Origin: a virus
Taxonomy: Duplodnaviria > Heunggongvirae > Uroviricota > Caudoviricetes
IMG/VR virus record: IMGVR_UViG_2690315992_000010
Reading direction: 5' to 3' (one strand)
Length of the DNA stretch: 35,687 bases
Positions 1 through 35,687 of this stretch are shown in pieces. The notes beneath the pieces are model-generated. The model did not search any database, was not told the origin of the DNA, and saw only the letters and a list, made by a program, of their open reading frames with translations. Positions within the stretch are counted from its first letter, which is position 1. Every line of letters begins with the position of its first letter. A program made the translations under genes and the position numbers.

Positions 1-273
1 ATGAACATCGGTAAAGCAATCATCAACTACGCAGCGCGTCGCAACATGGACATTACCTTGATTGGGGATGAGACCGTGGCGTTCTGGGAAGCGGATAACG
101 ATTGTGAATGGATGTTCTCCTACATGATTGGTAATGATGGTTTCCTCCACTTTAAAGGCAATGTGTATCTGCCGCAGGATATTAAAGAAGAATTACCAGC
201 GTGCATCGATACAGACAAGAAGCTGAAAGAAGTAATCAACTTTATCGCTAAAGAGTTTATCAGCAAGAAGTAA
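1..273 (+). CDS. hypothetical protein (begins at window edge, possibly 5'-partial)
   Basis: Open frame 1-273 ending TAA at 271-273, followed by stem-loop at 284-302. No domain recognised. Confidence 0.4.
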   Translation: MNIGKAIINYAARRNMDITLIGDETVAFWEADNDCEWMFSYMIGNDGFLHFKGNVYLPQDIKEELPACIDTDKKLKEVINFIAKEFISKK

Positions 274-283
274 TGTCTAATTT

Positions 284-302
284 GGCGGGTACTATTCCCG
301 CC
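284..302 (+). promoter_or_regulatory. intercistronic stem-loop, copy A of a repeated hairpin-plus-RBS module
   Basis: GGCGGG-tactatt-CCCGCC. The surrounding ~40 bp (TCTAATTTGG.GGGT...ATTCCC.CCG.TTT..AAA.GGA.AAT) recurs at 715-765 with compensatory stem changes. Confidence 0.4.
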
Positions 303-323
303 GATTTAAACGGAATACAGACA

Positions 324-710
324 ATGTTCAATATTATGACTCGTAAATTTGGTGAGATGACTTTCGAGAAAGCTGGTGTTGCTCGTACCGAAGAAGAAGC
401 AATGGCCTTAGTTCTGGTAGCACTGAGATCATCAACTGAGATTATCGACGCTGAATATGTAGCCGCAGAAGGTGAGATTAACGAGATTAAAGCGGTGGCT
501 AAGGAATTAGGTGTTAAAGGTTTCCGTAAGCTGAGACTATCCCGCGAGTCATATGTAATTGGTAAGCAAGGACAATACCTAGATGAGAATACCGTGATTA
601 TTCTACTGAATAAGATCACCCGCTACGGTTGGAAGATTGAGCAATATAAAACATGTTTCGAATTATACGAAAAAGGTTTGCTGGATACTCTGACCATCGT
701 TCGCGCTTAA
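324..710 (+). CDS. hypothetical protein
   Basis: ORF track gives 273-710. ATG 324 preferred because 273-323 overlaps the stem-loop and the paralogous module at 725-766 places the start codon after the hairpin. Stop TAA 708-710. No domain recognised. Confidence 0.4.
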   Translation: MFNIMTRKFGEMTFEKAGVARTEEEAMALVLVALRSSTEIIDAEYVAAEGEINEIKAVAKELGVKGFRKLRLSRESYVIGKQGQYLDENTVIILLNKITRYGWKIEQYKTCFELYEKGLLDTLTIVRA

Positions 711-724
711 TTAATTTCTAATTT

Positions 725-750
725 GGTGGGTGTAATTCCCACCGCTTTTT
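725..750 (+). terminator. intrinsic terminator-like hairpin, copy B of the module
   Basis: GGTGGG-tgtaatt-CCCACC followed by GCTTTTT, then GGAGAA RBS and ATG at 767. Confidence 0.5.
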
Positions 751-766
751 AAATGGAGAATCAAAC

Positions 767-847
767 ATGTTAGCTTTTATCTCATTCGTGGGAGGTAGTC
801 TCACAACCATGATTAGTCTTTCTTATATTGTCGTTAGTATGGGGTGA
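767..847 (+). CDS. small hydrophobic peptide, 26 aa (MLAFISFVGGSLTTMISLSYIVVSMG)
   Basis: GGAGAA RBS 8 nt upstream of ATG; not in ORF track (too short); hydrophobic composition. Confidence 0.2.
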   Translation: MLAFISFVGGSLTTMISLSYIVVSMG

Positions 848-850
848 GCA

Positions 851-973
851 ATGAAACAATTTCATGATGGCATTTCATCTAAGACATTCAAGAAAGAATA
901 TTCGCTGTGTATTAACTGGATTGATTTGATTGGTGCGGTTGTGTTTGGTCTGATTATTAGCATTAACTTTTAA
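851..973 (+). CDS. small membrane peptide, 40 aa with hydrophobic C-terminal segment (IDLIGAVVFGLIISI)
   Basis: ATG 851 preceded by GGGGTGAG; stop TAA 971-973; not in ORF track. Confidence 0.25.
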   Translation: MKQFHDGISSKTFKKEYSLCINWIDLIGAVVFGLIISINF

Positions 974-1018
974 TGATATAAATATATCGTAATTCAAACA
1001 ACAAGAGGAAATTCTACT

Positions 1019-1432
1019 ATGAAAAAGATTATCGCTGGTGTTGTTCTTGCTCTGGGTTTGGTTGGTGCTGCAAATGCTAATACCTATTATGTGTGTAATT
1101 CCTACTTCGAACATAAAGGAGATGATACACAATATCTTCGTGATGGCGACCGTTATTATCATGCACCGTCTGGAAAATATCGTGGTTTTATCGGTGTGAA
1201 AGTTCGCGTGAATGATGATAATAGTCAATTTGCTTTCAACGATCCGGTATATGATAAGACAATCAAAAGCCCTAAATTGAAAGAAGATAAGAACGAGAAA
1301 GAAGAATATTATGGTTCCGAAGATGGTAAATCCTACATCAAGTATCTGCATTCTGTTGATGGCGCGCCTATATTTGATGTTAAAAAAGGTGATACGTCTT
1401 ATTCCCTGATTAGCTGCCGTGAAATTCTTTAA
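1019..1432 (+). CDS. secreted/periplasmic protein of unknown function (Sec signal peptide)
   Basis: Strong RBS AGAGGAAA before ATG 1019. N-terminus MKKIIAGVVLALGLVGAANA is a canonical signal peptide with AxA cleavage motif. Two Cys (positions 26 and 134) could form a disulfide. Confidence 0.6.
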   Translation: MKKIIAGVVLALGLVGAANANTYYVCNSYFEHKGDDTQYLRDGDRYYHAPSGKYRGFIGVKVRVNDDNSQFAFNDPVYDKTIKSPKLKEDKNEKEEYYGSEDGKSYIKYLHSVDGAPIFDVKKGDTSYSLISCREIL

Positions 1433-1446
1433 TCTTTAATCACCTA

Positions 1447-1486
1447 GCCCCTATCGTTATAATACGCGGTAGGGGCGTTTTTGTTT
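1447..1486 (+). terminator. hairpin with T-tract between secreted-protein gene and recombinase gene
   Basis: GCCCCTA...TAGGGGC stem around a TTATAATA centre, followed by GTTTTTGTTT. Could be a terminator/attenuator or a recombinase-associated palindrome. Confidence 0.4.
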
Positions 1487-1495
1487 GGAAATGGT

Positions 1496-3175
1496 ATGAA
1501 AACTAAACTGTATTCGTATATTCGTTTCTCGTCTATGCGTCAGAATGATGGTTCGAGTTATGAACGACAAATCAGGATGGCTAGAGAGATTGCGGTAAAG
1601 TATGACCTTGAACTGGTAAATGATTATCAGGATCTGGGTGTATCTGCGTTTAAGGGTGCTAACTCCAAAACAGGGGCGCTATCTCGTTTCCTTGATGCAA
1701 TAGGTAGATCCGTTCCTGTTGGTAGCTGGCTATTCATCGAAAACTTGGACCGTTTATCCCGTGCCGATATTGTCAGTGCGCAGGAGTTATTCCTTTCAAT
1801 CATCCGTAGGGGGATAACCATTGTTACTGGCATGGATAACAAGATCTACTCGCTGGATACTGTTACCGCTAACCCGATGGACCTGATGTTCTCCATCCTT
1901 TTATTCATCCGTGGTAATGAGGAAAGCCAGACTAAGCGCAATCGTACTAACTCAAGCGCACTGATTAAGATTAAAGCTCATCAAGAAAATCCACAAAATC
2001 CGGCTGTTGCAATCGAGGAAATTGGAAAGAATATGTGGTGGACTGATACCACATCTGGTTATGTGCTTCCTCATCCGGTCTTCTTCCCTATTGTTCAGGA
2101 AGTTGTGGAATTACGCAGGAATGGACGGTCAACCGCCGAGATACTGGATCACCTTAACGCGACATACACACCACCACCAGCCGCAAGTCACAAGAGGCAT
2201 TCAAACTGGTCACGGGCAATGATTGAAAGGTTGTTCCATACCCGCGCTTTGATTGGTATCAAGGAAATCTCTGTAGATGGCGTTAAGTATGAGTTAAAGG
2301 ATTATTATCCTCGTGTGCTAGATGACGCTGAGTTTTATCACCTTAAGAAAAGCATTGGTGTTAGAGCATGTAACTTTGGAGACAAAGAAGAAGTTAAACC
2401 TATTCCCTTGCTTAGTGGTGTTGGTCTATTGAAATGTGAACATTGCGGTTCCGCTATGGTTAAGGTGAAAGGAACAAACAGACGGCCTAACCAATATCGT
2501 TATTCATGCGATGCAATGCGCTCTAGTCGTATTGAATGTGTGCATACAAACTGGAGTTTTCGCGGCGACCAATTAGAGAAAGCTGTATTGCAATTGCTGG
2601 CTGATAAAATCTGGATTGCTGAAGATAAGGCTAATCCGGTTCCGGCTTTGAAAGTACAGATTGATGAAATATCACGCAAGATTGATAACCTGATTACCCT
2701 TTCTGCTATGACAGGAGCAACGAAGGAGCTAGCCGATCAGATTACTACCCTCAATAGCGAGCGTGAAACACTCTACAATCAAATTAAGATGGCAGAAGAG
2801 GAAATGTATTCTGTTGACTCTCAAGGCTGGGAGAAGCTCGCAGAATTTGATTTAGAAGATGTTTACAACGAGGATCGCATTAAGGTCCGGTTTAAGATTA
2901 AGCAAGCTCTAAAACGGATCGGGTGTAGCAGGATTGACAAGTACAAAAACTTGTTTGTACTGGAATACATCGATGGCAAGACCCAGAGAGTTGTAATAGA
3001 AAATTCAAGAGGACCGAGGAAAGGCCGGATCTTCGTTGATTTGAAGACTATCAATGATAGGCAGATTCTGGAGAGTAACGGGCTTGTTCTGCATCCATGT
3101 TTAGACATGCTGACAGATAAGAACTGGAAACCAGAAGAAGAAATACCAGGTCCATTACAGGAATTTGGAATTTAA
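1496..3175 (+). CDS. large serine recombinase (putative serine integrase)
   Basis: N-terminal resolvase-type catalytic domain (YIRFSSMRQ...SYERQ, GVSAFKG, ENLDRLSRA), then recombinase domain, Cys-rich zinc-ribbon (CEHCGS...YRYSCD...CVH) and coiled-coil; 559 aa from ATG 1496. Track start 1481 is TTG; ATG 1496 is in frame. Confidence 0.8.
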   Translation: MKTKLYSYIRFSSMRQNDGSSYERQIRMAREIAVKYDLELVNDYQDLGVSAFKGANSKTGALSRFLDAIGRSVPVGSWLFIENLDRLSRADIVSAQELFLSIIRRGITIVTGMDNKIYSLDTVTANPMDLMFSILLFIRGNEESQTKRNRTNSSALIKIKAHQENPQNPAVAIEEIGKNMWWTDTTSGYVLPHPVFFPIVQEVVELRRNGRSTAEILDHLNATYTPPPAASHKRHSNWSRAMIERLFHTRALIGIKEISVDGVKYELKDYYPRVLDDAEFYHLKKSIGVRACNFGDKEEVKPIPLLSGVGLLKCEHCGSAMVKVKGTNRRPNQYRYSCDAMRSSRIECVHTNWSFRGDQLEKAVLQLLADKIWIAEDKANPVPALKVQIDEISRKIDNLITLSAMTGATKELADQITTLNSERETLYNQIKMAEEEMYSVDSQGWEKLAEFDLEDVYNEDRIKVRFKIKQALKRIGCSRIDKYKNLFVLEYIDGKTQRVVIENSRGPRKGRIFVDLKTINDRQILESNGLVLHPCLDMLTDKNWKPEEEIPGPLQEFGI

Positions 3176-4420: not shown

Positions 4421-4458
4421 GTTATACCCCCATAAGATTCTATGAGGGTATTTATGGA

Positions 4459-18800: not shown

Positions 18801-19229
18801 ATTTTTATTAGCGTTGATGGTATCCGACAATTCAGCTTTAACACCAGCAAGATCGGAAGCAGCTTTATTTTTATTGGCCTCGATTGTCGCGTCGGTTTCG
18901 CGTTTAATTACATCAACTTTATTGTTAATTTCTGCGTGATTTGCTGCGATGGTTGCATCAGTAGTTTGTTTAATTTCATCTACTTTAGCGTGAATATTGC
19001 GGTCGTTTGCTGCAATTGTGCTATCTAATTCTTTCTTGTTAGCATCAACTTTAGATTCTAGTGCCGCGTGAGTTTCAGGAGAAACAGAGATTTGAACTAC
19101 TTCATGATCTCGGTCTTTGGTAAAAATAACATGGTCTTTAAGGTTGATTGCTACCTCACCGACCTGTAATTGTTCCGGCGTTGGTTTTTTGCCAGAAACA
19201 TTAGTTCGTTTAAATTGGATTGATTGCAT
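15804..19229 (-). CDS. long (side) tail fibre with C-terminal intramolecular chaperone / S74 autoproteolytic domain
   Basis: 1141 aa; N-terminal ~33-aa repeat units (DxTIAAN...KVDxIKxxTD); C-terminus ...GRELGVIAQDVEKVMPEAVHV...TISVSSINALFVKAFQEL matches the chaperone domain of endosialidase/L-shaped-fibre type proteins. Confidence 0.8.
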   Translation of the reverse strand: MQSIQFKRTNVSGKKPTPEQLQVGEVAINLKDHVIFTKDRDHEVVQISVSPETHAALESKVDANKKELDSTIAANDRNIHAKVDEIKQTTDATIAANHAEINNKVDVIKRETDATIEANKNKAASDLAGVKAELSDTINANKNAAAVATQELDTRINKKVDDIKSRTDATIASNHKAINDKVDLIKAETDRTIAANQAYAENQLTDTYNNLTGVIAANKQEAADSVAALTRDVEAKNTAIHSKIDNNKVYTDSELARLESRIDAADGSADGKYIKKHVNTYTDGYLLSKTANYFDDPNARNLDYFGAFRMNDLAGHIAMILHVPHPSGVNHARGFEFTYGSNPHATVRTYGYDELGNLSYSHRMYHEGDKPTPAEIGAYSKAEIDRLFQKTLNFGIEGGWFKLGSLTLPQQHGRSAKIRLVGGNGYNVGMNGQANIIELVIRCGNNSPKGVVFNAYYSIWYHEQHFCAIPTDGDNYDLYAYYGAHTGFVLAEYQVSSGGVSLNLLDTPEYLGGEKPVADEIFDALNISSFNNVSNRGTLNFAGNHQGQYDIEHMNEQQTNSKKMLRRFRSSAPATIWHESVDDQNYRLATGYDDVNQQLLLSAATGLHVKRLTLDGGVGNAGIDIRRGPNESSHFNFMDYRTGQDVRNGWFGFGDLTTKDFIWWNDNGQNSINLIEDGELHITGGKGQKIVMNSEVALSENARLAVKGGNYGLMLRNDGSSFHILTTDLKDSFGSWNNRRPFSYDFADGGLYLGGTATARCLHLGIDGSTRLEDNLFFKAGSRQSMDYMELVHWGASNTGRNNVLSLRDSKGFLAEFERLWDNTTKNTFFGKMKINRGSDAIIMNAESGDSSVYLLGTCADNNNWYIGKGGGDNGLAFYSYATNAAINLTNAGDIALSPKGVEMVHVNNARLYVHGERWTASQPGDWGNQWRVEAPIFVDHGYVGQDCYYPIVKARSLITNQGYTTAVDFGMRRIPNNWGQAIIRVGSAENSPDNGHPQAVFEFHHDGFFYTPGNGSFNDVHIRSDERLKINKEELEEGALDKLNSLTVYSYDKVKSLSDDTVVGRELGVIAQDVEKVMPEAVHVCSDGDTENPGEIKTISVSSINALFVKAFQELTTKYDAMNEELKAVKAELAAIKSCK

Positions 19230-27086: not shown

Positions 27087-27129
27087 GTAATTACCCTCAT
27101 TACGAAATATGAAGGTATTTATTAAATTG

Positions 27130-28203: not shown

Positions 28204-28228
28204 AAAAAAGCCCCTGAAATTCAGGGGC
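28204..28228 (-). terminator. intrinsic (bidirectional) terminator after Rha operon
   Basis: AAAAAA-GCCCCTGAA-at-TTCAGGGGC-AAAAATT; its right half is the TTCAGGGGCAAAAAT motif that forms the iteron array at 30.7-30.9 kb. Confidence 0.65.
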
Positions 28229-28236
28229 AAAAATTA

Positions 28237-30713: not shown

Positions 30714-30906
30714 GGGGCAAATTTCAGGGGCAAAAATTAGATTTTAAGGGGCAATTATTGGCATTTCAGGGGCAAAAATGAGGGGCAAAATCACTGTTTC
30801 CCAGAATTTCAGGGGCAAAAATAGTGGGTTTCAGGGGCAAAAATGGGATAGTGGAATCTTGGGTATTTTGGTTCGGGGGCAAAATTCAGAATTTCAGGGG
30901 CAATTC
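30714..30906. repeat. array of ~9 direct GGGGCAA(A/T) iterons (5 copies of full TTTCAGGGGCAAAAAT)
   Basis: Core starts near 30715, 30727, 30749, 30770, 30782, 30811, 30832, 30876, 30897; spacings mostly 12 or 21 bp; non-coding. Confidence 0.6.
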
Positions 30907-35104: not shown

Positions 35105-35336
35105 GAGGTGAAATGATGCAATTCAATAGCATGAAGATTACTCAAAAATGGTGGGATGCGATGAAAGCTAACCACCAGAACGATATTAATTAAGTAACAT
35201 TTTAGATATACAGCACCCAGCTAACAGATCACCTTTTATGGATTTCATTATAACCCCTTTGATCTGGAAACTATGTTAATTAGTTGATTTCTAAGCCTTG
35301 TCCTTGTGATGGGGCTTTTTATTGCAAAATTTTTAG

Positions 35337-35687
35337 TTATTTTGGGTTGACTACATTCGGGTTGCCAATTCGCCAGGCTAACTCTTGCTGAGTGATTTCT
35401 GACTGTAAAAAAGCATTTAACAGCAATACTTTAGAGGCGACGCTCAAAGGTACTTCAATAAAGTGATCATGACTATTTAATGGCGAAGGTAACGGGATAA
35501 GCTCGTTATCTTCAAAATAAAAATCAAATGCGGTCAGTAAAGCATCTTTTGCCGCTTCCATCGCTTCAGCGACAGTTTCGCCCTGCGTCAACGCTTCAGG
35601 GATATCCACAAAAGAAACCATATAACCGCCTTCCGGCGCGGGTGTAAGAGTGACGGGATAACGCATAATTTCGACTGTCTCTCGCAT
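35337..35687 (-). CDS. hicB: HicB-family antitoxin, N-terminal domain only; C-terminal DNA-binding domain apparently truncated at junction with phage-like DNA
   Basis: MRYPVTLTPAPEGGYMVSFVDIPEALTQGETVAEAMEAAKDALLTAF... recognised as HicB N-terminal domain (recalled as near-identical to E. coli HicB; not verified). ORF ends ...ITQQELAWRIGNPNVVNPK* inside what should be the first helix of the HTH. Base composition and codon usage look more host-like here. Confidence 0.55.
   Translation of the reverse strand: MRETVEIMRYPVTLTPAPEGGYMVSFVDIPEALTQGETVAEAMEAAKDALLTAFDFYFEDNELIPLPSPLNSHDHFIEVPLSVASKVLLLNAFLQSEITQQELAWRIGNPNVVNPK

What the first reader, a model, noticed from the sequence alone, without database searches (positions are those of the whole stretch)
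273..976. Repeated hairpin-plus-RBS intercistronic module with compensatory stem mutations, followed by tiny hydrophobic peptide genes
The ~40-bp elements at 278-320 and 715-765 align closely, and their stems differ by paired changes (GGCGGG/CCCGCC versus GGTGGG/CCCACC), implying selection for the structure. The second copy is followed by two RBS-equipped ORFs of 26 and 40 aa encoding hydrophobic peptides, which could be small membrane-active host-interaction peptides.
Basis: seen in the sequence. Interest (0 to 1): 0.45.

Follow-up and report, generated by a model that had tools for sequence, protein, structure and literature searches.

The report
Repeated intergenic hairpin; two tiny genes
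A short terminator-like RNA hairpin marks the joints between swappable small genes next to the integrase of an E. coli prophage, and the two tiny hydrophobic ORFs after it are real, conserved, almost never annotated genes; this is interesting housekeeping rather than a new kind of system.

Summary
Two copies of TCTAATTTGG(C/T)GGG-N7-CCC(G/A)CCG lie at 276-303 and 717-744, with none expected by chance, and they differ by one compensated stem pair.

The window is a whole ~35 kb E. coli prophage inserted in hicB. The finding sits in the accessory region between attL and a large serine integrase.

Across 50 related loci the hairpin's usual position is directly upstream of the 26-aa ORF (43 of 50). 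It follows three different upstream genes there. Copy 1, before gene 2, occurs in only 12 loci and lacks a U-tract. One locus carries a hybrid hairpin, which places a recombination crossover inside the loop.

Stem variants keep pairing: 92% of cells are paired and two of the six core pairs covary. Both single-sided changes that keep pairing are G·U or U·G wobbles on the + strand.

Copy 2 looks like a weak intrinsic terminator followed by a Shine-Dalgarno sequence. A divergent lineage carries a hairpin with the copy-1 stem and a T6 run in the same position.

My reading is that it is an attenuator or insulator stem-loop that also serves as the recombination joint for gene-cassette shuffling. It resembles T4 PeSLs but has no promoter.

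Both tiny ORFs are under purifying selection (pN/pS 0.16 and 0.07). They form a very small family found so far only beside this integrase. Their function is unknown.

The parts
1..273 (+). Gene 1 (90 aa, function unknown). It is a cassette that is present or absent among sister prophages.
   Evidence: It matches phrog_6147 at E 8e-33. It is absent from the codB-integrated relatives L002 and L004.
276..323 (+). Module copy 1. The hairpin spans 283-303 (stem 284-289 / 297-302, loop TACTATT). It is followed by GAUUUAAAC, which is not a real U-tract, and a weak GGA ribosome-binding site before ATG 324.
   Evidence: locate and fold it. It is present in only 12 of 50 related loci. The stem is broken without compensation in DEC5A and in L010 (GGCTGG).
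324..710 (+). Gene 2 (128 aa). The true start is ATG 324, not the annotated 273. Its C-terminal ~75 aa are conserved in distant relatives.
   Evidence: The ATG at 273 is missing in L003 and L019. In the codB-integrated prophages gene 2 is the first gene after attL and is annotated at 387 nt. In L005 and L008 it starts 11-12 nt after the gene 1 stop. It matches phrog_14908 and is 57% identical to the 81-aa homolog in L035.
711..766 (+). Module copy 2. The hairpin spans 724-744 (stem 725-730 / 738-743, loop TGTAATT). A U5 tract lies at 746-750 and the Shine-Dalgarno GGAG at 755-758, 8 nt before ATG 767.
   Evidence: The scan scores it as terminator-like: 7 pairs, 5 of them G-C, then CTTTTT. The hairpin alone folds at -11.3 kcal/mol. 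A hairpin occupies this position in 43 of 50 loci.
767..847 (+). ORF1, a 26-aa uncharged hydrophobic peptide and a real gene.
   Evidence: pN/pS is 0.16 in frame against 1.3 and 1.8 in the other two frames. It is exactly 26 codons long in the distant relatives used for that test (L035, L038, L039), and 25-27 codons in the other variants. Tyr20, Val22 and Val23 are invariant. GRAVY is 1.64 with no charged residue. In the protein collection the exact sequence was called only once, by JGI/IMG, and carries no name.
851..973 (+). ORF2, a 40-aa tail-anchored peptide and a real gene. It has a basic N-terminus, MKQFHDGISSKTFKK, followed by a C-terminal membrane-spanning segment.
   Evidence: pN/pS is 0.07 among the close 41-codon alleles and 0.33 in the 40-codon set that includes distant relatives; the other frames give 0.9-5.1. 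One codon indel is in frame. All differences in the N-terminal 15 codons between the window and L035 are synonymous (sequences). Only 9 representatives exist among 1.84 billion proteins. PGAP annotates it in L008.
975..1018 (+). Second conserved junction: the palindrome (T/C)GATATAAATATATCG plus an AAGAGGA leader, placed ahead of the variable secreted-protein cassette.
   Evidence: The same leader precedes different downstream genes in relatives. L039 carries a compensated palindrome.
1019..1432 (+). Gene 3 (137 aa, N-terminus looks like a signal peptide). This is a variable cassette position.
   Evidence: Relatives carry 77-, 81-, 82-, 113- or 348-aa genes here, or nothing at all.
1447..1476 (+). 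Strong terminator-like hairpin that closes the accessory operon. Its loop holds a perfect TATAAT, just upstream of the integrase gene.
   Evidence: The scan gives 11 pairs, 7 of them G-C, then GTTTTT. It folds at -20.9 kcal/mol. It is conserved in all relatives, with one compensated pair.
1496..3175 (+). Large serine recombinase (integrase).
   Evidence: It matches the Pfam families Resolvase, Recombinase and Zn_ribbon_recom and phrog_95 integrase.

Best explanation
The repeated element is a short stem-loop restricted to one prophage lineage and transcribed on the + strand. It has a 6-7 bp GC-rich stem and a 7-nt loop, and in its full form is followed by a U-tract and a Shine-Dalgarno sequence.

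Its usual position is the gap just upstream of a conserved, translationally coupled pair of tiny membrane-protein genes (ORF1 26 aa, ORF2 40 aa). These lie in the accessory operon between attL and the serine integrase of an uncharacterised family of E. coli prophages.

Inferred mechanism:
- In the RNA, the hairpin acts as a weak intrinsic terminator, or attenuator, and as a 3'-end stabiliser. It would insulate the upstream cassette and throttle read-through into the hydrophobic-peptide genes, which have no recognisable promoter of their own.
- In the DNA, the same conserved ~50 bp is the joint at which neighbouring cassettes (gene 1, gene 2, gene X, ORF1 variants) have been gained, lost and swapped by recombination between related prophages.
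- Copy 1 in this window is a secondary, partly degenerate copy. I infer it arose when the gene 2 cassette was joined behind gene 1.

Shown here: the repeat, the stem covariation, the junction role seen in comparative architectures, the hybrid hairpin, and the coding status of both ORFs. Inferred only: termination or attenuation activity, and what the peptides do.
For: Repeat and structure:
- There are two copies and none expected by chance.
- The centroid fold of copy 2 and the RNAalifold consensus are just the core hairpin; copy 1's centroid adds a few weak flanking pairs.
- Among 11 distinct variants, 92% of cells are paired. Pair 1 is GC/AU/GU and pair 3 is CG/UA/AU/UG. The covariation score is 0.275 against 0.149 for shuffles, reached by 1 of 500 shuffles.
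- The two single-sided changes that keep pairing (L040 G·U, L012 U·G) and the flanking U·G pair work only in + strand RNA.

Terminator likeness:
- Copy 2 is scored as terminator-like.
- In L163 and L164, a lineage whose integrase is about 73% identical (measured on L035), a hairpin with the copy-1 stem sits in the same position upstream of ORF1. There it reads GGCGGG-TTAATT-CCCGCC, then a T6 run, GGAG and a start codon, while the 5' flank has diverged.

Junction role:
- A hairpin sits directly upstream of ORF1 in 43 of 50 loci, after gene 1, gene 2 or gene X.
- Gene 2 presence or absence is bounded by the copies: g1-HP-g2-HP-ORF1 versus g1-HP-ORF1.
- Ten loci have g1-g2 with no hairpin between them.
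- L012 has the 5' arm of one variant and the 3' arm of another, so a crossover fell within the loop.

Restriction:
- The module is in 57 of 5,426 complete E. coli genomes, at 1-2 places each.
- It is absent from species-representative genomes, where the 14 hits fit my own rough chance estimate, and from cultured phages.

Peptides:
- pN/pS is 0.16 for ORF1 and 0.07 for ORF2, against 0.9 or more in the other frames.
- ORF1 is uncharged and hydrophobic. ORF2 has a basic N-terminus and a hydrophobic tail.

Precedent: T4-type PeSL cassettes are stem-loop terminators followed by a Shine-Dalgarno sequence. They mediate indels by recombination, sometimes within the loop (PMC2839356, PMC4122927).
Against: - No transcript data exist, so termination or attenuation is unproven.
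- The stem is short, at about -11 kcal/mol, and the U5 tract starts one base after it. At best this is a weak terminator compared with 1447-1476 (-20.9 kcal/mol).
- Copy 1 and the L040, L044 and L012 variants have no U-tract, so terminator function cannot be general.
- Seven distant loci manage without any hairpin; their genes overlap stop to start.
- Two variants carry uncompensated stem changes: GGCTGG in L001 and L010, and CCCGCA in L019.
- The covariation rests on perhaps three or four independent events among closely related sequences. The shuffle control does not correct for relatedness.
- No promoter was found for the operon or for ORF1.
Confidence: 0.55

Rival explanations
1. It is an mRNA processing and stability element rather than a terminator. 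RNase E would cut in the conserved AU-rich 5' flank (UUUCUAAUUU). The hairpin would then protect the upstream 3' end from exonucleases, and possibly the new 5' end of the ORF1-ORF2 message. This would set different steady-state levels for cistrons of one transcript.
For: The hairpin is kept in variants that lack any U-tract (copy 1, L040, L044, L012). The 5' flank TCTAATTT is conserved in most variants and is AU-rich and single-stranded in the centroid fold of copy 2. It contains AAUUU, which fits the RNase E preference for AU-rich single strands next to a stem; that preference is established knowledge and was not tested here.
Against: The flank is missing in L044 and L163. AU-rich matches are expected by chance in 39% GC DNA. 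The two most divergent lineages that have the element both keep a T-run after the stem, which points to termination. This rival is not exclusive of the main explanation.
Confidence: 0.25
2. It is a neutral relic. The second copy is a by-product of one duplication or recombination event that joined cassettes, and the hairpin has no current function. The paired differences would reflect a few chance or hitch-hiking events.
For: There are only two copies per genome. Within the E. coli group the module is no more conserved (95-100%) than the flanking genes. Uncompensated stem mutations exist. Seven loci lack the element.
Against: Four different stems all stay complementary. The search with N at the variable stem positions returned only matched pairs in all 43 instances. 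Hairpin, T-run and Shine-Dalgarno sequence persist in L163, where synonymous sites are near saturation (pS about 0.5).
Confidence: 0.15
3. It is a PeSL-type composite, that is a promoter plus a terminator, and it drives ORF1 and ORF2 as an independent moron.
For: It has the layout of a PeSL 3' end: stem-loop, then Shine-Dalgarno sequence, then start codon, flanking small orphan genes that come and go. The loops TGTAAT and TACTAT loosely resemble a -10 hexamer.
Against: The consensus scan finds no sigma-70 promoter at either copy. TGTAAT and TGCAAT lack the critical A at position 2. No -35 lies at 16-18 nt in either copy, and the 5' contexts differ between copies (sequence).
Confidence: 0.05
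4. It is a DNA-level binding or recombination site, for example an operator palindrome or a pseudo-att site for the serine integrase.
For: It is an inverted repeat beside an integrase. In codB-integrated relatives attL lies exactly where hairpin 1 sits in this window.
Against: The stem sequence changes while complementarity is kept. G·T and T·G variants break DNA dyad symmetry but keep RNA pairing. It does not resemble the attP reconstructed from attL and attR (GGGTTGACTA-CAT-GTACCCACAA). Crossover points differ between architectures.
Confidence: 0.05

Closest known systems
PeSLs (promoter-early stem-loops) of T4-type phages (Arbiol et al. 2010, PMC2839356; Comeau et al. 2014, PMC4122927)
   Same: Both are short conserved intergenic cassettes holding a G/C stem-loop with terminator or attenuator character, followed by a Shine-Dalgarno sequence and a start codon. 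Both flank small orphan genes. Both sit at insertion, deletion and replacement boundaries between related phages, and in both a crossover has been mapped inside the loop.
   Different: This module has no sigma-70 promoter. It is about 50 bp rather than about 100 bp. It has two copies per genome rather than dozens. It is in a temperate, lambda-like siphovirus prophage rather than a T4-type hyperplastic region. Mini-circle formation was not tested.
Intrinsic (Rho-independent) terminators and intercistronic attenuators at the 3' ends of phage morons
   Same: Both have a GC-rich hairpin a few bases after a stop codon on the coding strand. Copy 2 and the L163 version are followed by a T5-T6 run. 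The flanking genes vary in presence.
   Different: The stem is short and weak. Copy 1 and three other variants lack the U-tract. No moron-type promoter accompanies it.
Small hydrophobic prophage or chromosomal peptides, such as type I toxins (Hok, Ldr, Ibs, TisB) and small inner-membrane regulators
   Same: The sizes (26 and 40 aa) and the single predicted membrane-spanning segment are similar, and they are encoded in a prophage.
   Different: No Pfam, NCBIfam, PHROG or PADLOC model matches either peptide, even at E up to 10 in Pfam and up to 1 in NCBIfam and PADLOC. No convincing antisense promoter was found. The pair lies inside a sense operon with ordinary ribosome-binding sites. The invariant soluble motif M(K/R)QFH(D/E)GISSKTF has no counterpart that I know of.

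Membership tests
Intrinsic (Rho-independent) terminator | GC-rich stem-loop on the transcribed strand downstream of a gene | tested here: met
   Both copies have a 6-bp stem, with 6 of 6 (copy 1) or 5 of 6 (copy 2) G-C pairs, plus a U·G pair. They start 12-14 nt after a stop codon on the + strand.
Intrinsic (Rho-independent) terminator | U-tract immediately 3' of the stem | tested here: inconclusive
   Copy 2 has CUUUUU and passes the scan. L163 has U6. Copy 1 (GAUUUAAAC) and the L040, L044 and L012 variants do not.
Intrinsic (Rho-independent) terminator | Transcripts end at the site, in vivo or in vitro | not testable with these tools
   No transcript data are available. Term-seq, 3'-RACE or a reporter assay is needed.
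PeSL (T4-type promoter-early stem-loop cassette) | Consensus sigma-70 early promoter within the cassette | tested here: not met
   No promoter-like site lies at 255-330 or 695-770. Inspection of the loop hexamers and -35 positions by eye was also negative.
PeSL (T4-type promoter-early stem-loop cassette) | Stem-loop plus Shine-Dalgarno sequence and start codon at the 3' end, flanking orphan genes and bounding indels between related phages | tested here: met
   See the architecture table of 50 loci and the hybrid hairpin in L012.
PeSL (T4-type promoter-early stem-loop cassette) | Many copies clustered in hyperplastic regions of a T4-type genome | tested here: not met
   There are two copies in a 35.7 kb temperate prophage with a lambda-type terminase and portal.
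Moron (independent transcription unit in a prophage) | Own promoter and own terminator, with variable presence among related phages | tested here: inconclusive
   Variable presence is met for genes 1, 2 and 3. A terminator-like hairpin is present. No promoter was found.
Type I toxin-antitoxin | Small hydrophobic toxin belonging to a known family, plus an overlapping antisense RNA | tested here: not met
   No Pfam, NCBIfam or PADLOC hit for either ORF. The only minus-strand promoter-like site (982-953) scores 9 of 12, and the region has fewer such sites (5) than the 9.5 expected by chance. No Rfam family matches.
Any curated RNA family (Rfam 15) or tRNA-like element | Match at or above the gathering score, or an ARAGORN call | tested here: not met
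   The best hit over 263-323 scores 15.3 bits against a gathering score of 37.8. No tRNA or tmRNA was found. The stem-loop GGTGGG-TGCAATT-CCCACC differs by one base from a tRNA T-arm seen in other contigs, but nothing else in the module is tRNA-like.

The most novel reading that the evidence does not exclude
ORF1 and ORF2 may be a previously unrecognised two-peptide membrane module that is functionally tied to the large serine integrase cassette of enterobacterial prophages. It could be a lysogeny-expressed superinfection-exclusion device or a modulator of a membrane protease or transporter. Its dose would be set by the upstream attenuator hairpin. The hairpin junctions would then represent a PeSL-like cassette-shuffling mechanism operating in temperate phages.
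Probability: 0.2. Interest if true: 0.55.

Novelty: new member of a known kind. Interest (0 to 1): 0.3.

Why it matters
- It gives a clean, small example from a temperate E. coli prophage of a conserved regulatory stem-loop that doubles as the seam where accessory genes are exchanged. Until now this has been documented mainly for the PeSLs of T4-type phages.
- It corrects an annotation. Gene 2 starts at 324, not 273.
- It adds two conserved small-protein genes. In the protein collection ORF1's exact sequence has a single unnamed record (JGI/IMG), and ORF2 is annotated only sporadically as hypothetical.
- The ORF2 family is tiny, with 9 representatives among 1.84 billion proteins. In every locus recovered here it sits beside one integrase lineage, and its N-terminal motif is invariant. 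That makes it a tractable target for small-protein functional work.
- None of this overturns current understanding.

Tried and rejected
- **Mosaic breakpoint at position 769 (H77):** this turned out to be an IS1 insertion, not a recombination joint.
- **Hairpin as attP or pseudo-att site:** I considered this because codB-integrated relatives have attL where hairpin 1 lies. I rejected it after reconstructing attP from attL and attR, which showed no similarity.
- **Protein-based search of species-representative genomes with gene 2:** no relatives were found.
- **Pattern scan of the same collection:** it gave 14 hits in unrelated taxa, close to the roughly 17 I estimated by chance.
- **Loose hairpin pattern in IMG/VR:** it returned mostly tRNA T-arms and unrelated GGG-TGAAATT-CCC hairpins. 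Only one uncultured T4-like lineage (L076, L091, L113) carries a look-alike module, between its sliding-clamp and clamp-loader genes. I cannot tell whether it is homologous. blastn of either module against cultured phages gave nothing significant.
- **Rfam and ARAGORN:** nothing.
- **Shine-Dalgarno sequestration by the 5' flank:** it appears in the minimum-free-energy fold of copy 2, but it adds only about 1 kcal/mol and is absent from the centroid fold, so I dropped it.
- **AlphaFold model of gene 2 without an alignment:** it was unusable, with mean pLDDT 41.
- **Literature search for this prophage family:** nothing found.
- **Closest integrase in a cultured phage:** only about 30% identical.
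Full report
**What the window is.** The window is an entire prophage of about 35 kb inserted in the E. coli hicB gene.
- In strain DEC5A a hicB fragment ends 36 bp to the left of window position 1.
- Host hicB sequence resumes at about position 35356.
- The prophage has a lambda-type large terminase and portal, and a large serine recombinase at 1496-3175.
- It is present in 60 of 5,426 complete E. coli genomes.
- It has no close relative among cultured phages. The best integrase match there is about 30% identical.

The finding lies in the + strand accessory region between attL and the integrase. The order is gene 1 (1-273), gene 2, two tiny ORFs, and a gene whose product starts like a signal peptide (1019-1432). 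A strong terminator-like hairpin follows at 1447-1476, and then int.

**Checking the observation.**
- The motif TCTAATTTGG(C/T)GGG-N7-CCC(G/A)CCG occurs at 276-303 and 717-744 and nowhere else in the window, even with three mismatches allowed. Shuffles give no matches.
- The similarity runs from each upstream stop codon to the next ATG, at 81% column identity.
- Both copies fold into a 6-bp G/C stem plus a U·G pair with a 7-nt loop.
- PGAP starts gene 2 at ATG 273, which would bury hairpin 1 in a coding sequence. That ATG is absent in L003 and L019 (TAATTT instead of TAATGT).
- In codB-integrated sister prophages, gene 2 is the first gene after attL and starts at the equivalent of 324. In other relatives it starts 11-12 nt after the gene 1 stop.
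- Hairpin 1 is therefore intergenic.

**Distribution of the module.**
- A scan of IMG/VR with N at the variable stem positions found 26 contigs, all about 19-45 kb and of the same prophage type.
- Counted together with the E. coli loci already fetched, there were 43 instances. Every one has a matched C..G or T..A pair.
- In complete E. coli genomes the module occurs in 57 of 5,426, at one or two places each, always in this prophage family.
- It is absent from species-representative genomes of other taxa. The 14 hits there were all in unrelated taxa and are close to the roughly 17 I estimated by chance.
- It is absent from cultured phages.
- It is therefore not a dispersed repeat.

**The tiny ORFs led to more distant relatives.** Homologs of the 40-aa peptide (54-90% identical) lie in prophages integrated at ycdX. 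Their integrase is about 73% identical to the one here, and the rest of their genome differs.

I classified 50 loci by architecture:

| Architecture | Loci |
|---|---|
| g1-HP-g2-HP-ORF1 (this window's type) | 12 |
| g1-HP-ORF1, no gene 2 | 9 |
| attL-g2-HP-ORF1, no gene 1 | 9 |
| g1-g2-HP-ORF1, no hairpin between g1 and g2 | 7 |
| g1-g2-gX-HP-ORF1' | 3 |
| gX-HP-ORF1 | 2 |
| no hairpin, genes overlap stop to start | 7 |

(The 50th locus, L003, is counted in the first row: it has both hairpins, but an IS1 insertion removed the ORFs.)

- A hairpin sits directly upstream of ORF1 in 43 of 50 loci, behind any of three different genes. That is its usual position.
- The copy in front of gene 2 is the rarer one.
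- L012 carries a hybrid hairpin. Its 5' arm is GGTGGG, as in copy 2, and its 3' arm is CCCGCC. It is followed by the alternative ORF1' gene, so a crossover fell inside the loop.
- The conserved hairpin is thus the seam between exchangeable cassettes.
- A second conserved seam lies at 975-1018. It is a palindrome plus a leader, and it precedes a variable set of secreted-protein genes.

**Is the stem selected?** I found several distinct variants:
- GGCGGG/CCCGCC
- GGTGGG/CCCACC
- AGCGGG/CCCGCT
- GGCGGG/CCCGCT (G·U)
- GGTGGG/CCCGCC (U·G)
- AGAGGG/CCCTCT, in a look-alike module of an uncultured T4-like phage
- Two with uncompensated changes: GGCTGG in DEC5A and one other locus, and CCCGCA in L019

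On 11 distinct sequences, 92% of cells pair and two of the six core pairs covary. The covariation score is 0.275 against 0.149 for shuffles, reached by 1 of 500 shuffles. RNAalifold predicts only this hairpin. Both wobble variants and the flanking U·G pair work only in + strand RNA.

This is moderate support, not strong. The independent events are few, and the shuffle control does not correct for relatedness.

**What it does.**
- Copy 2 passes the terminator scan, with 7 pairs and then CTTTTT.
- In the divergent L163/L164 lineage, a hairpin with the copy-1 stem sits in the same position upstream of ORF1. It reads GGCGGG-TTAATT-CCCGCC, then T6, GGAG and a start codon, even though the 5' flank has diverged.
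- Persistence of the hairpin, U-tract and Shine-Dalgarno sequence, at a divergence where synonymous sites are near saturation, is the best argument for a terminator-type role.
- The element is weak, however: about -11 kcal/mol against -20.9 for the hairpin at 1447-1476.
- Copy 1 and three other variants have no U-tract.
- No promoter is detectable for ORF1 or for the operon.
- I therefore favour a leaky terminator, or attenuator, with 3'-end protection. An RNase E-type processing role is the main alternative, and the two are not exclusive.
- Promoter, operator and att-site readings are disfavoured.
- No Rfam family or tRNA-like gene matches.

**The peptides.**
- ORF1 (26 aa) varies almost only at synonymous sites. 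pN/pS is 0.16, against 1.3 and 1.8 in the other frames.
- ORF1 is exactly 26 codons long in the distant relatives used for that test, and 25-27 codons in the other variants. Tyr20, Val22 and Val23 are invariant.
- ORF2 (40-41 aa) has pN/pS of 0.07 among the close 41-codon alleles and 0.33 in the 40-codon set that includes distant relatives. The other frames give 0.9 to 5.1.
- ORF2 has an in-frame codon indel and a serine codon-family switch (TCG to AGC). All differences in its N-terminal 15 codons between the window and L035 are synonymous.
- ORF1 is uncharged and hydrophobic. ORF2 has a basic N-terminus and a hydrophobic C-terminal segment, like a tail-anchored protein.
- ORF1's stop codon lies 3 nt before ORF2's ATG, or overlaps it in distant relatives, which suggests translational coupling.
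- No Pfam, NCBIfam, PHROG or PADLOC model matches either peptide.
- The ORF2 family has 15 clusters at 90% identity and 9 representatives at 50% identity among 1.84 billion proteins. The motif M(K/R)QFH(D/E)GISSKTF is essentially invariant.
- In every locus recovered, ORF2 lies 60-1,100 bp upstream of the serine integrase.
- In the protein collection ORF1's exact sequence has a single unnamed record (JGI/IMG). ORF2 is annotated sporadically as hypothetical.
- The function of both is unknown. Dosage control of potentially harmful membrane peptides by an upstream attenuator is a reasonable guess but remains untested.

**Comparison with known systems.** The closest described analogue is the PeSL of T4-type phages. 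A PeSL is a conserved intergenic cassette with a sigma-70 promoter, a G/C stem-loop terminator and a Shine-Dalgarno sequence. PeSLs flank orphan genes and mediate indels by recombination, with crossovers mapped in the loop (PMC2839356, PMC4122927).

The present module shares the stem-loop, the Shine-Dalgarno sequence, the junction role and the in-loop crossover. It fails the promoter criterion, has two copies rather than dozens, and sits in a temperate siphovirus. It works like a PeSL but is not one.

The hairpin just upstream of int (1447-1476) is closer to a PeSL in one respect. It has a perfect TATAAT in its loop, and TT at the -35 position with a 17-nt spacer in every variant.

**Verdict.** The hairpin is an ordinary kind of element, a terminator-like intercistronic stem-loop, with a nicely documented role as a cassette seam. 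The two tiny ORFs are real, conserved and essentially unannotated genes of a very small family. I rate interest at 0.3.

Noticed in passing
window 1447-1476 (+), just upstream of int (ATG 1496): This is a strong terminator-like hairpin, GCCCCTATCG-TTATAATA-CGCGGTAGGGGC followed by T5. Its loop holds a perfect TATAAT. All 16 sequence variants in relatives keep TTATAAT, and all have TT at the -35 position with a 17-nt spacer. One stem pair is compensated (A-T to C-G) in L035 and L163. It may be a PeSL-like composite of a terminator and the int promoter.
   Followed up: partly
window 975-1018 (+): The palindrome (T/C)GATATAAATATATCG and a conserved AAGAGGA leader follow the ORF2 stop. In relatives they precede different secreted-protein genes (77 to 348 aa) that share an MKK... 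signal-peptide start. L039 has a compensated version, GCGTTATAAATATAACG. This looks like a second cassette seam, or possibly an operator.
   Followed up: partly
36 bp left of window position 1 (L001 11964-12000) and window 35350-35356: These are the prophage ends inside hicB, with a shared core of CAT. Sister prophages with related integrases sit in ycdX and codB. The hicB and codB target sites look alike (TTGCCTAA(CA)TATCAT). A terminator-like hairpin at 35293-35317 lies just before attP on the + strand.
   Followed up: partly
window 30715-30905 and 28212-28234: At least five direct repeats of TTTCAGGGGCAAAAAT occur, spaced 21-43 bp apart, in a 37% GC intergenic stretch. They look like iterons of a replication origin or a set of operator sites.
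   Followed up: no
window 4425-4455 and 27092-27122: A second repeated hairpin pair, TACCC(C/T)CAT...ATGA(G/A)GGTATTTAT, lies at the edges of the minus-strand lysis and terminase gene blocks.
   Followed up: no
L076 3630-3715 (-), also L091 and L113 (uncultured T4-like contigs): A look-alike module, TTTCTAATTTG-AGAGGG-TGTAATT-CCCTCT-ATCCTTTTTATATTATGGAG, sits between genes that look like the T4 sliding clamp (gp45) and clamp loader (gp44). The 11-nt 5' flank was not part of the search pattern. I could not resolve whether this is homology, transfer or coincidence.
   Followed up: partly
IMG/VR loci L061-L146 (for example L069, L078, L081, L135): Many unrelated viral contigs carry intergenic hairpins of the form (A/T/G)GGGGG-TGAAATT-CCCCC(A/T/C), often more than once per contig, followed by a T-run and GGAG. 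Together with the loops here (TGCAATT, TGTAATT), the recurring loop form is U-GNRA-UU.
   Followed up: no
window 18639-19074 (within the 1,141-aa minus-strand gene 15804-19229): Five diverged copies of a repeat with 66-nt periodicity lie inside a large structural gene.
   Followed up: no
window 9930-10703 (-): RefSeq annotates this gene, which sits among the tail genes, as a NUMOD3-domain DNA-binding protein. It may be a remnant of a homing endonuclease.
   Followed up: no
L012 988-1075: The alternative ORF1' carries a 1-nt deletion relative to L040 and L044. It still reads as a 29-aa hydrophobic peptide that ends on the ATGA overlap with ORF2. This could be a sequencing error or a tolerated frameshift.
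   Followed up: no
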